From IMG/VR virus record IMGVR_UViG_3300045988_061615: a DNA stretch of 64,000 nt, one strand, 5' to 3'. The translations under genes and the position numbers were made by a program. The DNA comes from a virus. The notes beneath the pieces were generated by a model. That model was not told the DNA's origin. It made no database searches and saw only the letters and a program-made list of their open reading frames with translations. How positions within the stretch are numbered: position 1 is the stretch's first letter; every line of letters begins with the position of its first letter. Below, one piece after another: positions 17,636-54,296 of this stretch.

Positions 17636-18013
17636 TTATACGTTGAAGTCAGCTCTAACTTTAGTTTTGATTTCTCCTACTAGTGTAAGATAGTCTAGGT
17701 ATTTCTGTCTATCAGTTTGATTATCAGATAATCCTAATACAATACTGTTGGAGCTGTTGATTAAATCAAACTCTTCATCTTGGTCTACATACTGCCTAAT
17801 AATAGCTTTAATGCATTCTTTATGGTCTGGTTGACCATGTAGATGAACCTGAACATATGTCCACCTTGTTTCTTGTGTTACATCTTCTGTTTCTGGGTCT
17901 ATAACATCAACCACCTTTGACTTAATGTCATAGTTATAGTAATATGTGCCATTACCTAGTTTCTCTATTGAGTTAGGTTGTACATTCATTTCTATTCTTC
18001 TTGGTTCTAACAT
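17636..18013 (-). CDS. hypothetical protein downstream of DGR RT
   Basis: 125-aa ORF that overlaps the 3' end of the RT gene. It is not basic, so it is probably not an Avd accessory protein. Confidence 0.4.
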   Translation of the reverse strand: MLEPRRIEMNVQPNSIEKLGNGTYYYNYDIKSKVVDVIDPETEDVTQETRWTYVQVHLHGQPDHKECIKAIIRQYVDQDEEFDLINSSNSIVLGLSDNQTDRQKYLDYLTLVGEIKTKVRADFNV

Positions 18014-19208
18014 AAGGTCTTATTTTAAAATTTACTGGGAATGAATATCTGGTTAGAGAGTAGAATAGGTCCCTACTCTTGCTCTCAAAGTAATAAGATT
18101 TGTTATTGTACACAAAGTTAACCCTAAAACACTTGCTATAGCTAACCATATCTACAACATGAATATACTTGTTATAAAATCTTGAAATATTAGACTTCTT
18201 CCCATCCCAATTAGAGAACCTTAAACCTGTATCTCTTTGAATCTTTCTTAATAGATTCTTAGAATTACAGAACTTTAGCCAACCAAAGTATGATTGCATT
18301 CTCCTTCTCAATTCCTGTCTGTCAATCTTACCAGACTGATATTTCCTAACAAGTCTGAATAGTCTAATCTTAATTGACTTCCTTAGTAATACATGGGTAT
18401 GATAGAACCTATAACCTACAAAGTCTATACCTCTATCATCTACTGGGAATATTTGGTAATTTGATTTTAACCTTAAATTTAGAACCTCCTTCAAGTACAT
18501 CTTAATTGCTATAAGTACTGTTCTCAAGAAGTTCTTATCACTGCTGAGAATTACAATATCATCAGCATACCTGAAATAGAATTTACATTTCAACTCTTCC
18601 TTGACCCAATGGTCAAAGTAAGCTAAGTACAGATTAGCGAAGAACTGCGATAAGTAATTACCTATAGGAACTCTGTCGGCAGAATATATGATTTCAATAA
18701 GCAATAGTAAAAGACCTTGGTCTTTAATCTTCTTCTTAATGATTTCACATAGTATGTCGTGATTAACAGATGGGTAAAACTTTCTGACATCCATCTTAAG
18801 ACAGTACATTGTCTCCTCTGGATGTTTAGTTAATGCCGCTCTTAGGTCATAAGCTACATTATGAATTCCTCTATCTTTGATGCAAGAGTAAGTTTGCTTA
18901 ATAAATATTTTAGTCCAAATAGGTTCCATCACGTTCATTATAGCGTGATGTGTTATCCTATCTGGATAGTATGGTAGTCTAAATATCAACCTTTCTTTAG
19001 GTTCGTATATCTTAAACGTACTATACTCAGAGGTTTCATATACTAAGTCTTTTAATTGCTCAGATAACCTCTCATTCTCCTCCTGTCTATTCCTGTCATG
19101 CTTGAGGATTCCCCATCTAGCTGACTTATGCTTTCTAGCCTTATCATCAGCTTTCTCAATATTCTCTATATCATAAACCTTCTCATGTAAATAACCTATA
19201 CGTTTCAA
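17973..19208 (-). CDS. DGR-type reverse transcriptase
   Basis: 411-aa ORF with the RT motif RYADDIVILS (YADD box). Carries the DGR-typical PIGNYLSQFFANLYL motif. Lies immediately downstream of a TR/VR pair. Confidence 0.9.
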   Translation of the reverse strand: MKRIGYLHEKVYDIENIEKADDKARKHKSARWGILKHDRNRQEENERLSEQLKDLVYETSEYSTFKIYEPKERLIFRLPYYPDRITHHAIMNVMEPIWTKIFIKQTYSCIKDRGIHNVAYDLRAALTKHPEETMYCLKMDVRKFYPSVNHDILCEIIKKKIKDQGLLLLLIEIIYSADRVPIGNYLSQFFANLYLAYFDHWVKEELKCKFYFRYADDIVILSSDKNFLRTVLIAIKMYLKEVLNLRLKSNYQIFPVDDRGIDFVGYRFYHTHVLLRKSIKIRLFRLVRKYQSGKIDRQELRRRMQSYFGWLKFCNSKNLLRKIQRDTGLRFSNWDGKKSNISRFYNKYIHVVDMVSYSKCFRVNFVYNNKSYYFESKSRDLFYSLTRYSFPVNFKIRPYVRTKKNRNECTT

Positions 19209-44235: not shown

Positions 44236-44790
44236 TGGTGAATACTCATAGTGCAGGAGTACAACTGCACTAACTGGGCTTGTATGGTTTTGACAGGCGA
44301 TTACGAGTTAGTAAGACGTGTAGAGTTGGCACCAACTCTTTAATAATGATGCACAATTTTAAGTGGAAACACTGAAGTAAGAATGGCAGCCTAAGCTGCT
44401 GGCTTATCTATTAATTTAGCTCTAAGTCGGGTTAATGGGAGAGACCTAGAAACAGAAGAGGTGTGGGAAGAAGCGTATAGGGCAGCCCACTTAACTTGAA
44501 CGCCAAAGGTTAGTAGAGCTGAAATCTCCGTCACCTAGCTATGGGTTACAAATAGACGTTCTCCAACGTAAATGGAGTGGTGGAGCGACCGTTCGGTCAA
44601 GCCCAGTTTGGTAGTTTGTGAACAACTAAGTCGTAGCCTTACGAGGAGACGTAATTGGTGAATTAACACTCAGCTTCTTAGTAAAACTACCTACATGCTG
44701 AACTCAACAGCTGATGTAATAAAATAGAGATACACGTAATCTTATTATTTAGAGTTGTGAAGACCGCGGTTCGAGTCCGCGATGGTCCAC
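44236..44790 (+). ncRNA. ORF-free structured region ending in an orphan tRNA-like T-arm and acceptor 3' half (candidate tmRNA, interrupted tRNA or att core; unresolved)
   Basis: No ORF of 60 aa or more is present. The 3' end (44765-44789) is CGCGG-TTCGAGT-CCGCG-ATGGTCC-A, i.e. a tRNA T-arm plus acceptor strand. No matching 5' acceptor lies within 90 nt upstream. Confidence 0.3.
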
Positions 44791-44817
44791 TATTATTAAC
44801 GTTTAAATATCAATTTT

Positions 44818-46665: not shown

Positions 46666-47043
46666 ATCCACTATTGACGAATGGTGGTAGCAAAACTTGG
46701 TCTGAAGAACCAGTAGACATATTCCGGAGTATGTCTATGACTTAAAGGCTATATCAAAGAGTTGAAACCTGTATCTATTCGAACAGTAGAAGTTCACCTG
46801 ATTAAGCATCAGAAAACAGTAGTGCAAATCTACTATAGCTATTGTGTAAGAGAGAATCTACACGGTCTGCATTATATAATCAGCATGCAGATAGGTCACC
46901 AAGCAAACCTCTTTCCTGCCTGGTCAAGTGTGCATTACGGTCTGTAAGTGGCGAGCGGGTTAACGTATGTCCGATTGCCGTAATGCCGCTTGTTTATTGT
47001 TTAGAATAAAGAAAGACTCTCATAACAATAAATTTAACAAGAG

Positions 47044-48738
47044 ATGGAAATGAAAGGAGCACAAAGGCCAAGGAGGCCTTACCCTAATGCCGCACGTCAA
47101 AGGCGGGATGAGAATAAACCTAAGTTTGTGGATACTAATCAGTTATTCATAGACCAGTTTGTTAATCTTAAGAAATGTCTTCAGCCACGTACCTACGTGC
47201 AAGTGGCTAAAGATATGTATCCTTTATGGAAAGCTAATCCATTACTATGTACCAAGTTTACTGCATATACGAGGATGATAACTCGTAAATGTAGAATAAC
47301 TACCCCGGAAGGAGTTATACAGCTTGATACACAGCAAGGAGAAGGTTTGAAGAATGAAGGTATAATGAGGATGCTGTGGTTGGCAATCTATCACAAACCC
47401 ACATTCCATGCCAACATTGCTTATTTTGCAGCAGCTGGATGCTGGAAAGATTTCATTACTATGATGGCTTTAGATGTTCAACTCCATGGCTTTAAGCACA
47501 GATTGGATTGGGACTTCTTCAAGAAAGTCATATTCGCAGGTCTTGCCAACGGTCAGACATGTGATTTAGTAAAGAAGTATCTTCCTCGTGTTCGTTCCAG
47601 TGTTGCATGTAAGACAGATGAGGCAAAAGCACGTAACACAGTAGCCAAATTCTTGGCGGAAGGCCTTTATGGTAAACCTAAGGACGAAGGAGACTATTCA
47701 ACCTATCGTAAATATAGGAAGATGAAGAATAGCGGGAAAGCAGCCCAATGGCAGCAGTTAATCAGTCAAAAGAAATTCTTGGAAATTGATTTTGACACTG
47801 TTACTGGAAAGGCGCTGGCACAGCTAGTAGGCTCTAAATTCCTCAAACATCAAGGTCTTAAAGAGAAGTATCAGAACTGGTTGAAGAACCGTAAGAAGCC
47901 CTCTAATAGCGGATTTCTACATACTCTGTTCAAACCATACGGATTGGATAAAATTGCCGAAGAGATTCCAGAATTTATGGAAACTTCTATTAATGCAAGT
48001 TTCAATGTATTTGTTGATAATGCTAAACGCAATAGAGTAGCTCCGTTGTTGGTAGTAAGAGATATAAGTCATTCTGCTAATGGTGAGATAGAGAATAGCG
48101 AAACATCTGCTTACAGTTTGGGTAAAGCATATGCTTTATATCATTCTGAATTACTTCCTACAATATTCAAGAACTCCTATGCCGTGTTAGAGGATAACAT
48201 GGTTCTACGTAAGTTCAAAGGTCAGAATGTCATTGAGAAATGGAAATCTGACAAAGAAGAAGCATTATGCCAGAATCCTTCTATTATTAATATAGCAGAA
48301 ATGCTGTGTAAAATGAAAGAAGATTATGGTGTGGATGAAGGAGAGTTCCCTAGAGGCTGTGTGGTAATTACTAACCATACATATTTTACCAAGTTGAACA
48401 ACCAAGCATTCGTGGAATTTAAGCAAAGACTGCTTAAAGCAAATTTCAGTAAGGAATTTGTAAGAGCATTCAAAGTTATCATTTGGAGAGTTCCTTTAGC
48501 ATATAAGGGAAGACCTAATGTGGCTTTGGTTCCAGGAGTGTCAAATTGCTTCTTAGTAAATGGACTTAATAATTCAACATCCTCATTTATTACTGGAGAG
48601 AAGAGGTTCCAGGTGCCTAAAACCACTAGAGACATCTTTAAGCATGCTATGAATCAAGAGTTGCTTAATATGATGATTCTAGAGAAGGATGTTGTCAAGA
48701 AGAATGCAAGCGTGCAGAAGAAGCCTGTGAAGGCCTAA
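47044..48738 (+). CDS. hypothetical protein (564 aa)
   Basis: Long uninterrupted ORF with a basic N-terminus. Confidence 0.55.
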   Translation: MEMKGAQRPRRPYPNAARQRRDENKPKFVDTNQLFIDQFVNLKKCLQPRTYVQVAKDMYPLWKANPLLCTKFTAYTRMITRKCRITTPEGVIQLDTQQGEGLKNEGIMRMLWLAIYHKPTFHANIAYFAAAGCWKDFITMMALDVQLHGFKHRLDWDFFKKVIFAGLANGQTCDLVKKYLPRVRSSVACKTDEAKARNTVAKFLAEGLYGKPKDEGDYSTYRKYRKMKNSGKAAQWQQLISQKKFLEIDFDTVTGKALAQLVGSKFLKHQGLKEKYQNWLKNRKKPSNSGFLHTLFKPYGLDKIAEEIPEFMETSINASFNVFVDNAKRNRVAPLLVVRDISHSANGEIENSETSAYSLGKAYALYHSELLPTIFKNSYAVLEDNMVLRKFKGQNVIEKWKSDKEEALCQNPSIINIAEMLCKMKEDYGVDEGEFPRGCVVITNHTYFTKLNNQAFVEFKQRLLKANFSKEFVRAFKVIIWRVPLAYKGRPNVALVPGVSNCFLVNGLNNSTSSFITGEKRFQVPKTTRDIFKHAMNQELLNMMILEKDVVKKNASVQKKPVKA

Positions 48739-48901
48739 GTATTTCGCGCACCGTTTATTTAATAGTTGAATTAATGTTCTGATTGGATAGAAGATAGATT
48801 TCATTATGCATGGAGAAGAGCGCATATTTGGTATAGTAATCTTTGTGCATATCTAGTAACACTAGGTGGGAATTTATTGGATGATTCCATAGGGACTGGA
48901 T

Positions 48902-48975
48902 AGAGATATAGTTCAGTGGTAGAACAGCTAAAGTCAATCTTTAGAAGAACATCAGTTCGAATCTGGTTATCTCTA
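48902..48975 (+). tRNA. noncanonical class-I tRNA, anticodon CAA (identity unclear)
   Basis: Acceptor AGAGATA/TATCTCT. D-arm GTTC-AGTGGTA-GAAC. Anticodon arm CTAAA-GTCAATC-TTTAG. T-arm ATCAG-TTCGAAT-CTGGT. 2 nt at position 26 and a 6-nt variable loop. Confidence 0.45.
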
Positions 48976-49078
48976 CACCATTTTATTAATATGATTCTTT
49001 CAACATATGCAGTGTCATTTCTATCTCGACTCATAGTCATTATTACGAGTTAAAGTATCTGCAATTGTTGAATAACTA

Positions 49079-49114
49079 CTAAGCTCATCGGTTCGAGAGA
49101 ATATGTGAGCTTAG
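49079..49114 (+). repeat. conserved-loop hairpin, copy 1 (loop TCGGTTCGAGAGAATATG)
   Basis: 9-bp stem CTAAGCTCA/TGAGCTTAG. Member of a four-copy family with the same loop consensus and different stems. Confidence 0.55.
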
Positions 49115-49225
49115 TTTAATACCGAGCAAACTTCTATCGTATTTAATACATATTAACTTTTACATGTGGGGAAGATTCATTACCTTTGCACTCACAATTC
49201 ACAGTTAATATGGATTGTGTGATTC

Positions 49226-49309
49226 GGGCACGTAACCGGTAATTGGTAGCCGCGTAGACTGTAAATCTACTCCTTAATTGGACTGGAGGTTCGAGTCCTC
49301 CCGGGCCCA
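49226..49309 (+). tRNA. tRNA-Tyr (GTA), type II
   Basis: Acceptor GGGCACG/CGGGCCC with one A.G mismatch. Anticodon arm GTAGA-CTGTAAA-TCTAC. Long variable arm. T-arm GGAGG-TTCGAGT-CCTCC. Confidence 0.6.
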
Positions 49310-49362
49310 CTCACACTGCGATAATTAAATACAATATCTGTTGAGGTCAAACTCGACAAACC

Positions 49363-49390
49363 CTTCTATGGTTCGAGAGAATAGTAGAAG
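49363..49390 (+). repeat. conserved-loop hairpin, copy 2 (loop TGGTTCGAGAGAATAG)
   Basis: 6-bp stem CTTCTA/TAGAAG. Confidence 0.55.
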
Positions 49391-49396
49391 TAAACT

Positions 49397-49468
49397 GCGG
49401 GATTCGTATAATGGTTATTATAACAGCCTTCCAAGCTGAAGATGACAGTTCAATTCTGTTATCCCGCT
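49397..49468 (+). tRNA. tRNA-Gly (TCC)
   Basis: Acceptor GCGGGAT/ATCCCGC. Anticodon loop CTTCCAA. T-arm GACAG-TTCAATT-CTGTT. Confidence 0.7.
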
Positions 49469-51044
49469 CATTATTAATAATAGATTAGATTATGAAAGAG
49501 ACATCATTTAAGGCAGGTGTTATTGGTGGATTATGTGGAGTATTTACCTTCTTGGCATTATTTGCAACCACAAGTAAAGCATCAATTAATGAGTCTGCTG
49601 CTACTAATGGAGATTATAAAATCAACAGAGTGCAGTATGAATTTATTAACGAACTAACCATTTATAAGGTATCAGGTCCTGGTATTCCAGGTATTAAGTA
49701 TGTGCTTAGAGATTCCGAGAAAGGTGGTTTATGTGTATTAAATCCATGAGTGAACACTGTCTTATTAAGAAGAATACTCCAGAACTTCGTAAGAAACTAG
49801 AGGATGCTGGGTTAAGTGTGTGTATATGTACTACATTTGAGGATGCTGATTGGCTTAGTTGCTGGGGTTCTCATATGTCATATGATGTACATGGTGTGTA
49901 TCCGGATGACGTGGACGATTTGTCTAAAGAAGCCTATCTGGAGATGTATCTCAAGGAAACGAATCCGATTATATGTGAATCGGATGATGAGTTTATTAAC
50001 ATGTGTAAACAAATTAAAGGGAAATGATTATGCGGTAGATTACTTACAAGCCACCATAAGATAGTTGATTATTAATTAAGGCAATTTATTTATTAACTTA
50101 TTAACAATTAACTATCATGGCAACAATTAAACAATTTAAACAAGAAATCGCGAATTTAGTAAAAGCACAGAAAGCAGCTAAGAATATTAATGACTGCTCA
50201 TCAGTTTATTACAACAGAGGAAGATTACATGCAATGTATGTAGCTTATTACATATTAAAGCATAAACTAATCGGAGAAGCTATGGATGAGTATCTCGCTA
50301 AAGTTATCAAAGAATGGAAATCACTTGAAACTCAAGGTTGGTGTGGTTATTCTAAGATGTATAGTGGAGAGAAGTATTTCCGAGAAAGAGTTGATTCACT
50401 GATTGATACATATTCTGATGAAGAGATTGTATGTGCTGATAGACCAGAAGCTTGATGCAGTTTATGGTTGTGTACAAGGAGGTCATGCAGTAGCGCAGTG
50501 GTTATTAGAACATCCTAAGCAGGATTGGAATAATAACTACTTAATCTACTTATATGCTGACTTGGACAAATGGAAAGTAAGACTGGACTTAGTTAATAAG
50601 GACTATTCTTCATTCTATGAACCAGACCTTGGCAATCAATTAACAGCAATCGCATTACAAGATGACGGTCGCATGTTCAAGAAACTTAAATTAGTAAGAG
50701 AATGATATACAAACGAGATTATTATGTCAGTATAGGTGACGAACAGGTAATTATTACTAAGAACGCCATTATGCCATATAATGTAATGGAGCCTAGAAAC
50801 AAATACTTTTATAAAGTTGGAGATAAGGTTTTAACTCCGTTCGGGATACAAACTATTAAGGACATTATAAAGGATTATAGTTCTCAACCAGGTCATGAAT
50901 GGATTATCCTAGTAGAGGAGAATGGCAATCAGTATAAGCCGTGTGAGTTAATTGGCATAGTAGTCAAGGAACTTACACTTGAACAGTGGAATCAAATTAT
51001 CGAATAGTTGATGAGTTGTGGGTAATCTCGTAAAACCCTCTGTC

Positions 51045-51116
51045 GCCCCATTACTTCAGTGGTAGAAGAGCAAATTCTAAACTTGTATGGCGTTGGTTCG
51101 AGTCCAACATGGGGCA
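51045..51116 (+). tRNA. suppressor tRNA, anticodon CTA (reads UAG)
   Basis: Acceptor GCCCCAT/ATGGGGC. D-arm CTTC-AGTGGTA-GAAG. Anticodon arm GCAAA-TTCTAAA-CTTGT. T-arm GTTGG-TTCGAGT-CCAAC. Confidence 0.7.
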
Positions 51117-51118
51117 CT

Positions 51119-51197
51119 TGCGGAGGAATGAAACGGATATATAAATCATACTAGTCTCATAAGCTAGTTATATTGGGTTCGACTCCCATCTCCGCAA
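51119..51197 (+). tRNA. tRNA-Met/Ile2 (CAT) with enlarged D-loop
   Basis: Acceptor TGCGGAG/CTCCGCA. D-stem ATGA/TCAT with a 14-nt loop. Anticodon arm CTAGT-CTCATAA-GCTAG. T-loop TTCGACT. Confidence 0.5.
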
Positions 51198-51297
51198 CTA
51201 CAATCATTGTACATTTGCATTTTCAGAATGTTAAGAAGACACACAGCAATTTCCTGTATGTTGGCATAAGTAAATGAATCTATTGTCTTCTGATGAT

Positions 51298-51370
51298 GGG
51301 TGTATAACTCAGGTGGTAGAGTAACACGCTGATAACGTGTAAGTCCTTGGTTCAAGTCCAAGTACACCCA
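51298..51370 (+). tRNA. tRNA-Ile (GAT)
   Basis: Acceptor GGGTGTA/TACACCC. D-arm ACTC-AGGTGGTA-GAGT. Anticodon arm ACACG-CTGATAA-CGTGT. T-arm CTTGG-TTCAAGT-CCAAG. Confidence 0.85.
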
Positions 51371-51472
51371 CAATACAACAATTTTCAATAGCTTTGAATA
51401 AGAAGTCTTACGGCACGAAAGAAAGTGTTTCATATTTTATGATTTTAATTAAACTAAGAGACTTCTGTAGTC

Positions 51473-51545
51473 CGGGATGTAGTTCAGTAGATAGAATGCG
51501 TGGTTTGGGACCACGAGGTCGCTGGTTTGAATCCAGTCATCCCGA
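51473..51545 (+). tRNA. tRNA-Pro (TGG)
   Basis: Acceptor CGGGATG/CATCCCG. Anticodon arm CGTGG-TTTGGGA-CCACG. T-arm GCTGG-TTTGAAT-CCAGT. Confidence 0.85.
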
Positions 51546-51600
51546 CCCCCTGTAGCATCCAAGAGAGGATGCTGATAATCCCATAATAGCAAATATGGAC

Positions 51601-51630
51601 AACTACTCAGTTCGTGAGAATAGAGTAGTT
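51601..51630 (+). repeat. conserved-loop hairpin, copy 3 (loop AGTTCGTGAGAATA)
   Basis: 8-bp stem AACTACTC/GAGTAGTT. Confidence 0.55.
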
Positions 51631-51770
51631 TTAATAAGAACCATAATTAACACAATAATATATAGTTTCACTAAACAATCATCAAATCAACTCAACAATC
51701 AACCCAACAACTTTTAATTTATGATTTGATTAACCTGTTTCATAGTTAAGCCCATAAGTCGTATTGATAT

Positions 51771-51842
51771 GTGGGCTTGCCCGAGAGGTTTAGGGGCTGG
51801 TCTGCAAAACCAGTTAGGACGGTTCGATTCCGTCAGCCCACT
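51771..51842 (+). tRNA. tRNA-Cys (GCA)
   Basis: Acceptor GTGGGCT/AGCCCAC. Anticodon arm CTGGT-CTGCAAA-ACCAG. T-arm GACGG-TTCGATT-CCGTC. Confidence 0.8.
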
Positions 51843-51925
51843 CTCGATTTAGTGAAACATAAGAAGGCGTACAGCACTAATCATTGTACAGTTTACATGT
51901 TTTTGATAACGCGCCTTCTGTGGAT

Positions 51926-51997
51926 GATTCCGGAGCATGTATGGATATGCTATAGACTTTTAATCTATAGAACAGGGTTCAAGTCCCTGCGGAATCA
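51926..51997 (+). tRNA. tRNA-Lys (TTT)
   Basis: Acceptor GATTCCG/CGGAATC. D-arm GCAT..ATGC. Anticodon arm ATAGA-CTTTTAA-TCTAT. T-arm CAGGG-TTCAAGT-CCCTG. Confidence 0.85.
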
Positions 51998-52037
51998 CAT
52001 ATGTACTAAGATTGTACATGATGTCAAAGAACGAGTT

Positions 52038-52070
52038 TAACCACTCAGTCTGTGAAGATAGAGTGGTTTA
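52038..52070 (+). repeat. conserved-loop hairpin, copy 4 (loop AGTCTGTGAAGATA)
   Basis: 10-bp stem TAAACCACTC/GAGTGGTTTA. Confidence 0.5.
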
Positions 52071-52102
52071 TTTAGATTATTAATTTAAAATCAGATACAT
52101 TT

Positions 52103-52246
52103 ATGAGTAAGATTATTGGAGTATTGTTAGTAATTGGTTCTGTTATAGGAACAGTTGCTTGTATAGCTCAACATCAATTTAATCCATTCACTGGAGTATT
52201 GTTGTTGCTAGTATTTTGCTTTGGTTGCTGTTTAGCGATGAGCTAG
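52103..52246 (+). CDS. micro-ORF encoding a 47-aa two-transmembrane-helix peptide
   Basis: MSKIIGVLLVIGSVIGTVACIAQHQFNPFTGVLLLLVFCFGCCLAMS. Lies between tRNA genes. Confidence 0.3.
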   Translation: MSKIIGVLLVIGSVIGTVACIAQHQFNPFTGVLLLLVFCFGCCLAMS

Positions 52247-52422
52247 ATTATTTATTTATTGACTAAAACTGATGTATTATGAGACTATTTAAGTTAATTA
52301 AGAAAGCAGTTCGTTGGTATTTTAGAATAGCTGCAAATAGCTATGCTTGGACACCAACAGGAGTAGTTCCTTACCATAGGGATTAACTCCGATGCAATCG
52401 GGATAGGTCAATTAAACATTAT

Positions 52423-54226: not shown

Positions 54227-54296
54227 CTGAATGGGTAATATAAGAAGGCATCAGCACTTTTACTGTGTCATGTAGTTCAATTTGCCTTCTGATGAT

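What the first reader, a model, noticed from the sequence alone, without database searches (positions are those of the whole stretch)
49079..52070. Family of hairpins with a conserved loop and covarying stems, interspersed among tRNA genes
Four hairpins share a 14-18-nt loop with consensus RGTYYGWGARRATA, but their stems are completely different:
- 49079-49114, stem CTAAGCTCA/TGAGCTTAG, loop TCGGTTCGAGAGAATATG;
- 49363-49390, stem CTTCTA/TAGAAG, loop TGGTTCGAGAGAATAG;
- 51601-51630, stem AACTACTC/GAGTAGTT, loop AGTTCGTGAGAATA;
- 52038-52070, stem TAAACCACTC/GAGTGGTTTA, loop AGTCTGTGAAGATA.

Loop conservation together with stem covariation is the signature of a selected RNA structure rather than of DNA repeats.

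Each hairpin lies 30-120 nt from a tRNA gene. Two are followed by short T-runs. They could be recognition sites for a processing nuclease or RNA-binding protein, terminators or attenuators with a protein-binding loop, or targets of the neighbouring homing endonucleases.
Basis: seen in the sequence. Interest (0 to 1): 0.65.

Follow-up and report, generated by a model that had tools for sequence, protein, structure and literature searches.

The report
Conserved-apex RNA hairpins in gut phages
The four hairpins among the tRNA genes of this crAss-like gut phage are real and belong to a large RNA hairpin family, absent from Rfam 15, in phages of Bacteroidales bacteria: the lower stem changes freely, a 16-base tip is almost invariant, and the hairpins sit where transcripts end or are cut, probably as a landing pad for an unknown cell factor.

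Summary
The "14-18-nt loop" is itself structured: a 4-bp inner helix (invariant G·U and U-A, then two covarying pairs) is capped by a GNGA tetraloop. A G•A mismatch (2x2 loop in copy 1) separates it from a variable 6-11-bp outer stem.

A weak fifth copy follows tRNA-Ser(GCT). The core occurs 5 times in the window against 0.38 expected, always on the + strand.

Three capped scans of viral contigs gave 220 distinct hairpins in 78 nucleotide lineages with unrelated stems. Cultured Bacteroides phages crAss001 and B40-8 also carry copies. No Rfam 15 family matches.

Non-Watson-Crick stem positions are G·U 217 times and A·C 17 times, so the structure forms on the sense strand, most simply the RNA.

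About half of the hairpins carry a 4-9-nt U-tract, like intrinsic terminators. About a fifth end 2-13 nt (mostly 2-7) before a same-strand tRNA, a 60-fold enrichment.

The motif appears to follow the host clade rather than the phage lineage, has no shared neighbouring phage gene, and is rare in bacterial genomes.

Best reading (confidence about 0.45): a transcript-end or punctuation hairpin whose apex docks a host factor. The partner and its exact effect are unknown.

The parts
49078..49115 (+). Copy 1. Outer stem 49078-49088 / 49105-49115 (11 bp). 2x2 internal loop CG/AU. Inner helix GUUC/GAAU (49091-49094 / 49099-49102). Tetraloop GAGA (49095-49098). Tail UUUAAUA. Lies 102 nt after tRNA-Leu and 110 nt before tRNA-Tyr.
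   Evidence: Sequence. Fold -17.7 kcal/mol, z -4.21. CM R1 30.7 bits, R2 30.6 bits. Conserved in close relatives L002, L036, L041, L042, L043, L069 and L108, with changes only in the internal loop or to a wobble pair.
49363..49390 (+). Copy 2. Outer stem CUUCUAU/GUAGAAG (7 bp, including U·G). G•A mismatch (49370/49383). Inner helix GUUC/GAAU. Tetraloop GAGA (49375-49378). No U-tract. Ends 6 nt before tRNA-Gly (49397) and starts 52 nt after tRNA-Tyr.
   Evidence: -10.7 kcal/mol, z -2.75. CM 38.2 and 35.4 bits. Identical in 12 related loci.
51601..51630 (+). Copy 3. Outer stem AACUACUC/GAGUAGUU (8 bp). A•A mismatch. Inner helix GUUC/GAAU. Tetraloop GUGA (51614-51617). Followed by UU, which makes a UUUU run together with the last two stem bases. 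Lies 53 nt after tRNA-Pro and 140 nt before tRNA-Cys.
   Evidence: -12.5 kcal/mol, z -3.40. CM 41.2 and 39.2 bits. In relative L043 the mismatch base changes A to C and nothing else changes.
52039..52068 (+). Copy 4. Outer stem AACCACUC/GAGUGGUU (8 bp). A•A mismatch. Inner helix GUCU/AGAU, a compensatory swap relative to copies 1-3. Tetraloop GUGA (52052-52055). Tail UAUUUAG. Lies 40 nt after tRNA-Lys and 34 nt before a 47-aa ORF (52103).
   Evidence: -15.4 kcal/mol, z -4.63. CM 38.3 and 39.0 bits. L042 and L043 have A-U changed to G·U at the stem base. The apex is identical to that of the 5' hairpin of Rfam BTnc201/MasB.
58719..58746 (+). Possible degenerate copy 5. Outer stem UAAUAA/UUAUUA (6 bp). 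2x2 loop GA/CA. Inner helix GUUU/AAAU. Tetraloop GCGA. Starts 6 nt after tRNA-Ser(GCT) and lies 17 nt before an ORF (58764).
   Evidence: Matches the strict core. The orthologue in L036 has loop GUGA and L043 has GCGA. The fold is weak (-6.4 kcal/mol, z -0.44) and only the core scores with the CM (9.5 bits).

Best explanation
**What it is.** The hairpins are a sense-strand structure, most simply formed in the transcript. They belong to a family specific to phages and mobile elements of gut Bacteroidales.

**Two-part build.**
- A sequence-free outer stem, 8 ± 1 bp in most members, supplies stability.
- An almost invariant apex supplies identity. Its consensus is 5'-Y G G U Y Y G N G A R R A U A G-3'. 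It consists of a Y-G closing pair, a G•A mismatch, a G·U pair, a U-A pair, two covarying pairs and a GNGA tetraloop.

**Where it sits.** The hairpin lies where an RNA 3' end is made.
- About half of the copies are followed by a 4-9-nt U-tract and would act as intrinsic terminators or attenuators between co-directional genes or in 5' leaders.
- About a fifth end 2-13 nt, mostly 2-7 nt, before a tRNA. There RNase P cleavage of that tRNA would leave the hairpin as the 3' cap of the upstream spacer RNA.

**In the window.**
- Copies 1, 3 and 4 (U-rich tails) most likely close tRNA sub-units.
- Copy 2 is a read-through leader or spacer cap in front of tRNA-Gly.

**Role of the apex.** It is proposed to be the docking site of a trans-acting host component, such as RNA polymerase with Nus factors, a ribonuclease or an RNA-binding protein. 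That partner would set termination efficiency or 3'-end stability.

**Shown:** the structure, its strand, the covariation, the U-tracts, the tRNA adjacency and the distribution.
**Inferred:** termination, 3'-end capping, and the existence and host origin of the partner.
For: **Structure and selection.**
- 69 of 80 and 66 of 86 distinct contexts of two apex 15-mers in viral contigs have an outer stem of 6 bp or more. By my own estimate chance would give about 4%.
- 130 model hits from 78 lineages plus the two cultured phages are 98.4% paired, against 63% after shuffling and 35-47% with slid partners. Every outer pair shows all four Watson-Crick types.
- The inner pairs covary: U-A 80 / C-G 43 at one pair and C-G 82 / U-A 46 at the other. 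G·U and U-A are invariant in 127 of 128.

**Strand.** Non-Watson-Crick stem positions are G·U 217 and A·C 17. Only 3 hairpins have an opposite-strand tRNA nearby.

**3'-end theme.**
- T frequency is 0.55-0.69 at positions +1 to +5 after the stem and falls to about 0.3 by +9.
- A T-run of 3 or more follows 103 of 220 hairpins, against a 6.7% background. A T-run of 4 or more follows 69 of 220, against 1.8%.
- T-runs are depleted where a tRNA follows directly: 9 of 41 against 94 of 179.
- 18.6% of hairpins end 15 nt or less before a same-strand tRNA, against 0.3% of random positions. This holds in 17 lineages.
- In B40-8, two tandem copies with U5 tails lie between the end of the lysis module and a canonical TTTG/TAnnTTTG promoter.
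- In L087 a copy with a UUUU tail follows the DUF2693-FD sRNA motif by 40 nt.

**Host rather than phage partner.**
- The motif is present in crAss001 (Crassvirales), B40-8 (an unrelated Bacteroides fragilis phage) and temperate phages with a CI-like repressor.
- It is absent from Cellulophaga phage phi14:2, which is in the same subfamily as crAss001.
- No neighbouring protein family is shared by more than 8 of 78 lineages.
- The 5' hairpin of the B. thetaiotaomicron sRNA MasB has the same inner helix and tetraloop.
Against: - No RNA-end or expression data were available, so termination and processing are inferred from sequence only.
- In the window the U-tails are short or interrupted (UUUAAUA, UUUUAAUAA, UAUUUAG), and copies 2 and 5 have none.
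- About 39% of family members have neither a T-run of 3 or more nor a called tRNA downstream.
- 28 hairpins lie in divergent intergenic regions, in 5' leaders with no upstream co-directional gene, against 10 in convergent ones. This fits attenuators or 5'-terminal hairpins better than operon-end terminators.
- A host factor that reads the apex should also have host targets, yet the exact 16-mer gave only 9 real hairpins in 185,579 genomes, several of them on prophage or phage-like contigs. Only one apex variant could be scanned there.
- The host-tracking argument rests on three cultured phages.
- No partner has been identified.
Confidence: 0.45

Rival explanations
1. Processing signal or sRNA handle. 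The hairpin marks spacers for an endoribonuclease, or it is the common 3' scaffold of small spacer RNAs released by tRNA processing (RNase P downstream, RNase Z or E upstream). The apex would be bound by an RNA chaperone or nuclease, and termination would be secondary.
For: - Enrichment directly upstream of tRNAs is 60-fold, with 2-13-nt (mostly 2-7-nt) A/U-rich leaders.
- The 30 nt upstream are U-rich and C-poor, like the single-stranded sites that RNase E/Y-type enzymes cut (enzyme preference from general knowledge).
- In the window a second, unrelated hairpin type also ends exactly 6 nt before five tRNAs, so 'hairpin then RNase P site' is a rule of these arrays.
- crAss001 has both types.
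- MasB carries a similar apex in a trans-acting sRNA.
Against: - Two thirds of members are not near tRNAs.
- The distance from apex to tRNA +1 is not fixed (10-22 nt) and stem length does not compensate for leader length (r = -0.08). A loop-anchored ruler nuclease acting on the tRNA end is therefore unlikely.
- The U-tract signal is specific and strong.
Confidence: 0.2
2. Ordinary intrinsic terminators or stabiliser hairpins with no specific partner. The apex would be conserved because it is a favourable folding nucleus that spreads among co-infecting phages by recombination, like mobile regulatory cassettes.
For: - U-tracts follow about half of the copies.
- GNRA tetraloops are common in terminators (general knowledge).
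- No partner was found, and distribution by host could simply reflect gene flow among phages that share hosts.
Against: - Sixteen near-invariant positions persist across 78 lineages whose hairpins range from 19% to 66% G+C. They include a weak G·U, two A-U pairs and a mismatch, which lower stability.
- The flanks and stems are unrelated, so copies are not recent transfers.
- Host genomes seldom use the motif.
Confidence: 0.1
3. Processive antitermination element, comparable to lambda nut/boxB or HK022 put. The nascent hairpin would bind RNA polymerase, alone or with a factor, and make it resistant to downstream terminators or Rho. It would be re-installed after each tRNA because processing cuts the tether.
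For: - GNRA-type loop on a conserved short helix.
- Copies lie at the start of, and just after the first ORF of, the rightward early operon next to a CI-like repressor in temperate phages (L033).
- All window copies follow a tRNA.
- Untranslated tRNA arrays are natural Rho targets (general knowledge).
- The motif is phage-specific, and no phage partner would be needed in a put-like mode.
Against: - Half of the copies are directly followed by a U-tract, which would make them terminators themselves.
- No boxA-like linear element or any positioned flanking motif was found.
- It is a single hairpin, not the two-stem put architecture.
Confidence: 0.1
4. Decoy RNA. Many copies of a small hairpin would titrate a host nuclease, RNA-binding protein or immune sensor during infection.
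For: - The motif is rare in bacterial genomes relative to viral contigs.
- There are several copies per genome, up to 7 in one 13.6-kb locus, and a tandem array of five in 500 nt in L062.
- The apex resembles the sarcin-ricin loop in sequence: GGUUCGAGAGAAUA against AGUACGAGAGGACC (the latter from memory).
Against: - The second loop base varies (A, U, C or G) and the pair equivalent to the sheared A•G of the sarcin-ricin loop covaries as a Watson-Crick pair, so it is not a sarcin-ricin mimic.
- Positions at gene boundaries are explained more simply by a cis role.
- No target is known.
Confidence: 0.07
5. DNA-level element: a homing-endonuclease target, a hairpin promoter of the N4 type, a recombination site or a mobile repeat.
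For: - HNH genes lie in the window's tRNA region.
- The hairpin ends a few nt before tRNA starts, as N4 promoter hairpins end a few nt before +1 (N4 detail from memory).
Against: - G·U 217 against A·C 17 means the template strand could not form the hairpin. A single-stranded sense-strand DNA hairpin is not excluded by this test.
- The stems are unrelated between copies, unlike mobile repeats.
- No nuclease co-occurs.
- There is no positioned promoter box.
Confidence: 0.02

Closest known systems
Intrinsic (Rho-independent) terminators
   Same: A stable hairpin directly followed by a short U-tract, on the sense strand, between genes. About half of the family has this form.
   Different: Terminators have no family-wide conserved sequence. 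Here 16 apical positions are near-invariant and include a mismatch and a wobble pair. Many copies lack a U-tract and sit 2-7 nt before a tRNA that must be transcribed through them.
Lambda-type nut site (boxB hairpin bound by N) and HK022 put RNA
   Same: Phage-specific cis-acting RNA hairpin with a GNRA-type loop on a short conserved helix. In temperate phages it lies near the start of the early operon.
   Different: No boxA-like partner motif. A single hairpin with a long variable lower stem. It is often its own terminator. It is conserved across unrelated phages, whereas boxB is specific to each N protein (general knowledge).
5' hairpin of the Bacteroides thetaiotaomicron sRNA MasB (Rfam RF04177, BTnc201)
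   Same: Identical inner helix and tetraloop (GUCU-GUGA-AGAU). A C-G closing pair and G•A at the edge of the internal loop. Same host clade (PMC10994844).
   Different: MasB has a 4x4 internal loop instead of a 1x1 mismatch. Its hairpin is at the 5' end of a roughly 100-nt trans-acting sRNA. The window copy scores 23 bits against a gathering score of 105, so it is not a MasB homologue.
PeSL (promoter-early stem-loop) cassettes of T4-type phages
   Same: Short regulatory stem-loops repeated between small genes of a phage plastic region (from memory of Arbiol et al. 2010).
   Different: PeSLs are DNA-sequence repeats that include a promoter and are thought to mediate recombination. Here only the apex is conserved, the stems covary, and no promoter box is positioned next to the hairpin.
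Rnt1p (yeast RNase III) substrates with AGNN tetraloops
   Same: The architecture: a conserved tetraloop plus the top few pairs give identity, and the lower stem is free (from memory).
   Different: A eukaryotic enzyme. No bacterial loop-reading RNase III is known to me. Here the distance from loop to the nearest processing site (tRNA +1) is not fixed.
Theta (HDV-like) ribozymes next to gut-phage tRNAs
   Same: Structured RNAs interspersed in tRNA arrays of gut Caudoviricetes, including recoded phages with suppressor tRNAs (PMC10879173). The window also has a CTA suppressor tRNA.
   Different: Theta ribozymes are nested double pseudoknots that cut at the tRNA 3' end. This is a plain hairpin with no room for P1.1/P2, and it lies mostly upstream of tRNAs.

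Membership tests
Any Rfam 15 family | Score at or above the family's gathering threshold | tested here: not met
   No hit on the hairpins at gathering thresholds. With E up to 10 on 48700-52300 the only overlapping hits were chance-level: BTnc201 at 23 bits against 105, and RsaJ at 16 bits against 100. Six other hairpin-rich loci gave nothing on the hairpins.
Intrinsic terminator | Stable stem-loop on the transcribed strand | tested here: met
   MFE -10.7 to -17.7 kcal/mol, z -2.8 to -4.6 for copies 1-4. The G·U against A·C test places the structure on the sense strand.
Intrinsic terminator | U-tract immediately 3' of the stem | tested here: inconclusive
   Family-wide, a T-run of 3 or more follows 47% and of 4 or more follows 31%, with T frequency 0.55-0.69 at +1 to +5. 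In the window, copies 1, 3 and 4 have short or interrupted U-rich tails and copies 2 and 5 have none. The simple terminator scan did not flag them because it does not allow internal loops.
Intrinsic terminator | Causes RNA polymerase to release the transcript | not testable with these tools
   Needs Term-seq or in vitro transcription.
Lambda nut (boxA + boxB) | Conserved linear boxA element a few nt from the hairpin | tested here: not met
   Position-wise composition of 40 nt upstream and downstream shows only U-richness and no conserved motif.
Lambda nut (boxA + boxB) | GNRA-like loop on a short stem, promoter-proximal in early operons | tested here: inconclusive
   A GNGA tetraloop is present in all copies. 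An early-operon position is seen in the L033-type temperate phages but not in most contexts.
HK022 put RNA | Two adjacent stem-loops of about 70 nt acting together | tested here: not met
   Single hairpins of about 30 nt. The spacing between neighbouring copies is variable, from 70 to more than 400 nt.
tRNA or tRNA-like T-arm/minihelix mimic | 7-nt T-loop closed by G53-C61, with a cloverleaf or a 12-bp acceptor/T stack | tested here: not met
   ARAGORN and Rfam tRNA do not call them. The GGUUCG resemblance holds only for one apex variant. GUCU, GUCC and GUUU variants are equally frequent and the loop is a tetraloop. Helix length varies: the outer stem is 6-11 bp.
Sarcin-ricin loop mimic | Invariant GAGA loop and a bulged-G motif with a sheared A•G pair | tested here: not met
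   Loop position 2 is A, U, C or G. The position equivalent to the sheared pair covaries as U-A/C-G.
BTnc201/MasB sRNA | Full-length match (99 model positions) at 105 bits or more | tested here: not met
   23 bits, and only the first hairpin aligns.
N4-type DNA hairpin promoter | Hairpin formed by the template DNA strand | tested here: not met
   G·U 217 against A·C 17 at non-Watson-Crick stem positions in a strand-neutral selection.
Mobile DNA repeats (REP/MITE-like) or CRISPR-repeat mimics | Stem sequence conserved between copies | tested here: not met
   Stems are unrelated between copies in one genome and between genomes. Every outer pair shows all four Watson-Crick types.

The most novel reading that the evidence does not exclude
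The invariant apex is a dedicated RNA 'handle' by which many unrelated phages of gut Bacteroidales engage one host machine, and which the host itself hardly uses. The machine could be RNA polymerase with NusA, or an as yet unknown RNA-binding protein or nuclease in a phylum that lacks Hfq and ProQ. That would be a new class of phage cis-RNA comparable in rank to boxB or put, and it would give a bait for finding the partner.
Probability: 0.3. Interest if true: 0.85.

Novelty: new variant of a known kind. Interest (0 to 1): 0.68.

Why it matters
Gut Bacteroidales and their phages, crAss-like phages above all, are among the most abundant biological entities in humans. Their RNA biology is poorly known. 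The phylum lacks Hfq, ProQ and CsrA, uses unusual promoters, and has few described RNA-protein recognition elements.

This is a short motif with very strong covariation support. It is present in at least 78 phage lineages and in two cultured model phages, yet it is absent from Rfam.

It offers three things:
1. An annotation feature for transcript boundaries in thousands of uncultured phage genomes.
2. A defined bait of 16 invariant nucleotides to fish for the unknown partner.
3. A portable part, a terminator or stability element, for Bacteroides genetic engineering, if its activity is confirmed.

Because it appears to track the host clade rather than the phage lineage, it may also help host prediction for gut phages.

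Tried and rejected
- **Rfam.** Whole window at gathering thresholds, the region itself, and six other hairpin-rich loci at permissive E-values. No family covers the hairpins.
- **Literature search by sequence.** Four apex strings gave only irrelevant hits. Keyword searches for a described motif found nothing. Two large catalogues of candidate phage and microbiome RNAs exist (PMC10690425, PMC8040213). One was read in part, the other only as a search abstract, and neither could be searched for this motif. It may sit unnamed in them.
- **BLAST of the region against phage records.** Only tRNA-to-tRNA hits.
- **Promoter just upstream.** No positioned TTTG or TAnnTTTG box, only a broad U-rich, C-poor tract. 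The sigma-70-type scan was at chance level.
- **Conserved neighbouring protein.** All-against-all clustering of 3,265 ORFs from 147 loci. The best family covers 8 of 78 lineages and is a CI-like repressor.
- **T-arm mimic, sarcin-ricin mimic, N4-type template hairpin, mobile repeat, CRISPR-repeat mimic, theta/HDV-like ribozyme.** Each fails a defining feature (see the membership table).
- **Loop-anchored ruler to the tRNA 5' end.** The distance ranges from 10 to 22 nt and is not compensated by stem length.
- **RbpB as partner.** Its CLIP data show a preference for AU-rich sequence, not for this hairpin (PMC11697453). Not pursued further.

Full report
**1. The observation**

The four hairpins are in the sequence as described. 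RNA folding gives each a clear minimum-energy hairpin: -17.7, -10.7, -12.5 and -15.4 kcal/mol, with z-scores of -4.2, -2.8, -3.4 and -4.6 against dinucleotide shuffles.

GUYY pairs with RRAU around a GNGA tetraloop, and a single purine-purine mismatch (a 2x2 loop in copy 1) separates this inner helix from the variable outer stem. Copy 4 has GUCU/AGAU where the others have GUUC/GAAU. That is two compensatory changes inside the supposed loop.

The core GTYYGNGARRAT occurs five times in the window against 0.38 expected. All five are on the + strand between 49091 and 58738. The fifth (hairpin 58719-58746, 6 nt after tRNA-Ser-GCT) has the right architecture but a weak A/U stem (-6.4 kcal/mol, z -0.44). 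I treat it as a possible degenerate copy.

**2. The setting**

- The window is from a divergent crAss-like phage of the human gut. Its terminase is about 30% identical to those of crAss-like phages and 58.7% identical to that of an uncultured faecal phage.
- The 3' third of the window carries 19 ARAGORN-called tRNAs, including a CTA suppressor, plus a tmRNA and a RAGATH-34 RNA.
- All five hairpins are co-oriented with the tRNAs.
- Copies 1, 3 and 4 lie 102, 53 and 40 nt after a tRNA and have U-rich tails.
- Copy 2 lies between tRNA-Tyr and tRNA-Gly and ends 6 nt before the latter.

**3. It is a large family**

An exact scan of viral contigs with the 14-mer shared by copies 1 and 2 returned many loci in which the same apex sits on completely different stems. 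These queries carry no information about stems, yet 69 of 80 and 66 of 86 distinct contexts had an outer stem of at least 6 bp. By my own estimate (16 register offsets x 0.375^6) chance would give about 4%.

Altogether there are 220 distinct hairpins in 147 loci, which fall into 78 lineages by megablast.
- The outer stem is 6-11 bp, with a mode of 8.
- The internal loop is 1x1 in 184 of 220.
- In the 224 strand-neutrally selected contexts, the mismatch is G•A in 79% and the pair below it is C-G or U·G.

A covariance model built from 39 hairpins recovers the four window copies at 30.7-41.2 bits, with nothing else above 14 bits. It also finds further variant apices such as GUAU/AUAU and GCUU/AAGU.

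On 130 model hits, one set per lineage:
- 98.4% of cells are paired, against 63% after shuffling and 35-47% with slid partners.
- Every outer pair shows all four Watson-Crick types.
- The two upper inner pairs covary (U-A 80 / C-G 43; C-G 82 / U-A 46).
- The G·U and U-A pairs are invariant in 127 of 128.

This alignment is fitted to the model, so the unbiased 15-mer test above is the stronger evidence.

Close relatives of the window phage keep all copies. Their changes fall only at unpaired positions or produce wobble pairs.

**4. RNA, not DNA**

In a strand-neutral selection (at least 5 of 7 Watson-Crick pairs), the remaining stem positions are G·U 217 times and A·C 17 times. The invariant G·U would be an A·C mismatch on the other strand. 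The structure therefore belongs to the sense strand, most simply the transcript. This rules out a template-strand hairpin promoter of the N4 kind and any double-stranded DNA site.

**5. Not in the catalogues**

No Rfam 15 family matches, either at gathering thresholds or at E up to 10. The only overlap is a 23-bit chance-level hit to BTnc201, the MasB sRNA of Bacteroides thetaiotaomicron. Its first hairpin has the very same inner helix and tetraloop (GUCU-GUGA-AGAU) but a 4x4 internal loop. The MasB paper does not discuss this hairpin. Sequence and keyword searches of the literature found no description.

**6. Context across the family**

Three regularities stand out.

(a) *U-tract.* After hairpins that are not next to a tRNA, T frequency is 0.55-0.69 at +1 to +5 and returns to about 0.3 by +9. 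A T-run of 3 or more follows 103 of 220 hairpins (background 6.7%), and a run of 4 or more follows 69 of 220 (background 1.8%). Many copies look like textbook intrinsic terminators, for example CGGCACU-apex-GGUGCCG-U9.

(b) *tRNA adjacency.* 41 of 220 hairpins end within 15 nt of the start of a same-strand tRNA (typically 2-7 nt), against 0.3% of random positions, and this occurs in 17 lineages. The true share is higher, because several downstream tRNA-like sequences are not called by ARAGORN. T-runs are depleted in this class (9 of 41 against 94 of 179), as expected if transcription must continue into the tRNA.

(c) *Position.* About 85% of copies are intergenic by a crude ORF call. They lie mostly between co-directional genes, and more often in divergent (28) than in convergent (10) intergenic regions. 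Many copies sit 25-45 nt before a start codon. No promoter box is positioned upstream, only a U-rich, C-poor tract. The distance from apex to tRNA +1 ranges from 10 to 22 nt and is not compensated by stem length, so no loop-anchored ruler acts on the tRNA end.

**7. Who reads the apex?**

Clustering 3,265 neighbouring ORFs finds no family shared by more than 8 of 78 lineages. The motif occurs in very different phages:
- crAss001, with one copy 5 nt before tRNA-Glu;
- the Bacteroides fragilis phage B40-8, with two tandem copies with U5 tails just before a canonical TTTG/TAacTTTG promoter, plus an expanded variant before the Rha gene;
- temperate phages, where copies flank the first ORF of the rightward operon next to a CI-like repressor.

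It is absent from Cellulophaga phage phi14:2, a marine member of the same subfamily as crAss001. The best hit there is 19.5 bits and matches both strands.

In 185,579 species genomes the exact 16-mer CGGTTCGAGAGAATAG occurs 86 times, which is about chance level or below. Only 9 of these are real hairpins. They lie on Bacteroidales, Prevotella or Porphyromonas contigs or on contigs that look like phages. One is a prophage nin region, one lies after an OmpA-family gene next to a PcfJ-like gene, and one lies in the leader of an epimerase/PAP2 cluster.

The motif therefore appears to follow the host clade, is used mainly by mobile elements, and needs no linked phage gene. This points to a host component as reader. 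The caveats are that only three cultured phages and one apex variant were tested.

**8. Mechanism**

The reading that covers most facts is a transcript-end or punctuation hairpin. In both main classes the hairpin ends up 2-9 nt from an RNA 3' end. With a U-tract, the end is made by intrinsic termination. Next to a tRNA, it is made by RNase P cutting the downstream tRNA.

The outer stem supplies stability, and the apex supplies recognition by a factor that tunes termination or 3'-end stability. In the window this makes copies 1, 3 and 4 the ends of tRNA sub-units, and copy 2 a read-through spacer cap.

I put this at 0.45. Termination, capping and the partner are all inferences.

Rivals:
- processing signal or sRNA handle, 0.20;
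- partner-less terminators, 0.10;
- put/nut-like antitermination, 0.10 (contradicted by the U-tracts and by the lack of a boxA);
- decoy RNA, 0.07;
- DNA element, 0.02.

**9. Novelty and value**

The kind of element is familiar: a terminator or processing hairpin with a protein-docking tip. This family is not in Rfam 15 and I found no description of it. Its combination of a free stem, an invariant structured apex, phage specificity and apparent host tracking is unusual. It is directly testable in two cultured phage-host pairs. I rate it a new variant of a known kind, interest 0.68.

Noticed in passing
window 51233-51291, 51401-51466, 51862-51919, about 54240-54290, about 58556-58617 (looser: about 61440-61473): A second, unrelated family of tRNA-leader hairpins. 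Its form is (T)AAGAAG-NNN-(T)ACAGCA ... 35-45-nt loop ... NNN-CTTCTG-(A/T)(T/G)GAT | tRNA. The 3' strand always ends 6 nt before the mature 5' end of tRNA-Ile, Pro, Lys, Arg and Ser-GCT. crAss001 has an analogous long-loop spacer hairpin that ends ATGAAT before tRNA-Asp (L432, about 1993-2061). 'Hairpin, then 6 nt, then tRNA' seems to be a rule of these arrays.
   Followed up: partly
window 51118-51191: A tRNA-Met-like gene (anticodon CAT) directly abutting the CTA suppressor tRNA. ARAGORN does not call it and Rfam tRNA scores it at only 20.8 bits. BLAST matches annotated tRNA-Met genes of other phages and unannotated stretches of Lak megaphage records.
   Followed up: partly
window 51045-51117: A suppressor tRNA with anticodon CTA, labelled Pyl by ARAGORN. 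It suggests amber-codon reassignment in this phage, as described for gut phages (PMC10879173).
   Followed up: no
window 46668-46775 and 47044-48738; L433 46453-46596 and 46870-48288: A RAGATH-34 RNA (119 bits) lies immediately upstream of a TROVE/Ro60-like ORF (weak DUF2828 match; phrog_850 'RNA-binding protein'). crAss001 also has a TROVE gene, with a 144-nt tRNA-like hit just downstream. These may be Y-RNA-like partners of a phage Ro protein.
   Followed up: partly
window 44276-44792: A phage-encoded tmRNA (Rfam 50.3 bits, just above the gathering score of 47). An unrelated hairpin-bearing phage group (L008, L070, L109) also carries a tmRNA near its hairpins.
   Followed up: no
window 17973-19208 (- strand): A reverse-transcriptase ORF (phrog_1423, E 1.5e-112) next to tail-fibre-like genes. 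It is possibly a diversity-generating retroelement.
   Followed up: no
L087 2881-2929 and 2970-2997: A DUF2693-FD RNA (RF02926, 77.8 bits) lies 40 nt upstream of a family hairpin with a UUUU tail, which is followed by a long tRNA-like sequence. Judged by eye from the aligned flanks, the same T-rich spacer-hairpin-tRNA-like arrangement recurs in L095, L111, L207, L209, L244, L266 and L334. DUF2693-FD itself was confirmed only in L087 and was not detected in L244.
   Followed up: partly
L434 (Bacteroides phage B40-8) 28446-28492: A variant in which the tetraloop is replaced by an extended helix and an 11-nt loop. That loop is complementary to a segment about 40 nt upstream (CCGCCAACAA against UUGUUUGGCGG). 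This suggests alternative pairing, that is an attenuator, in front of the Rha regulator gene.
   Followed up: no
L062 5078-5489 (- strand): Five family hairpins in tandem within about 500 nt of non-coding DNA, four of them with U-tracts. This may be an array of tiny transcription units or stacked terminators.
   Followed up: no
window 51748-51778: A leader hairpin AGCCCAUA...UAUGUGGGCU whose 3' strand is the 5' acceptor strand of tRNA-Cys, so leader pairing would compete with the acceptor stem. It has weak similarity to the family model (13.9 bits).
   Followed up: no
window about 51205, 51884 and 52012: The motif (C)ATTGTACA recurs three times shortly after tRNA genes (Met-like, Cys, Lys). 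Its meaning is unknown.
   Followed up: no
L244 10541-10648: A sub-threshold match (62 bits against a gathering score of 81.9) to the Bacteroides sRNA family BTnc049 on a viral contig.
   Followed up: no
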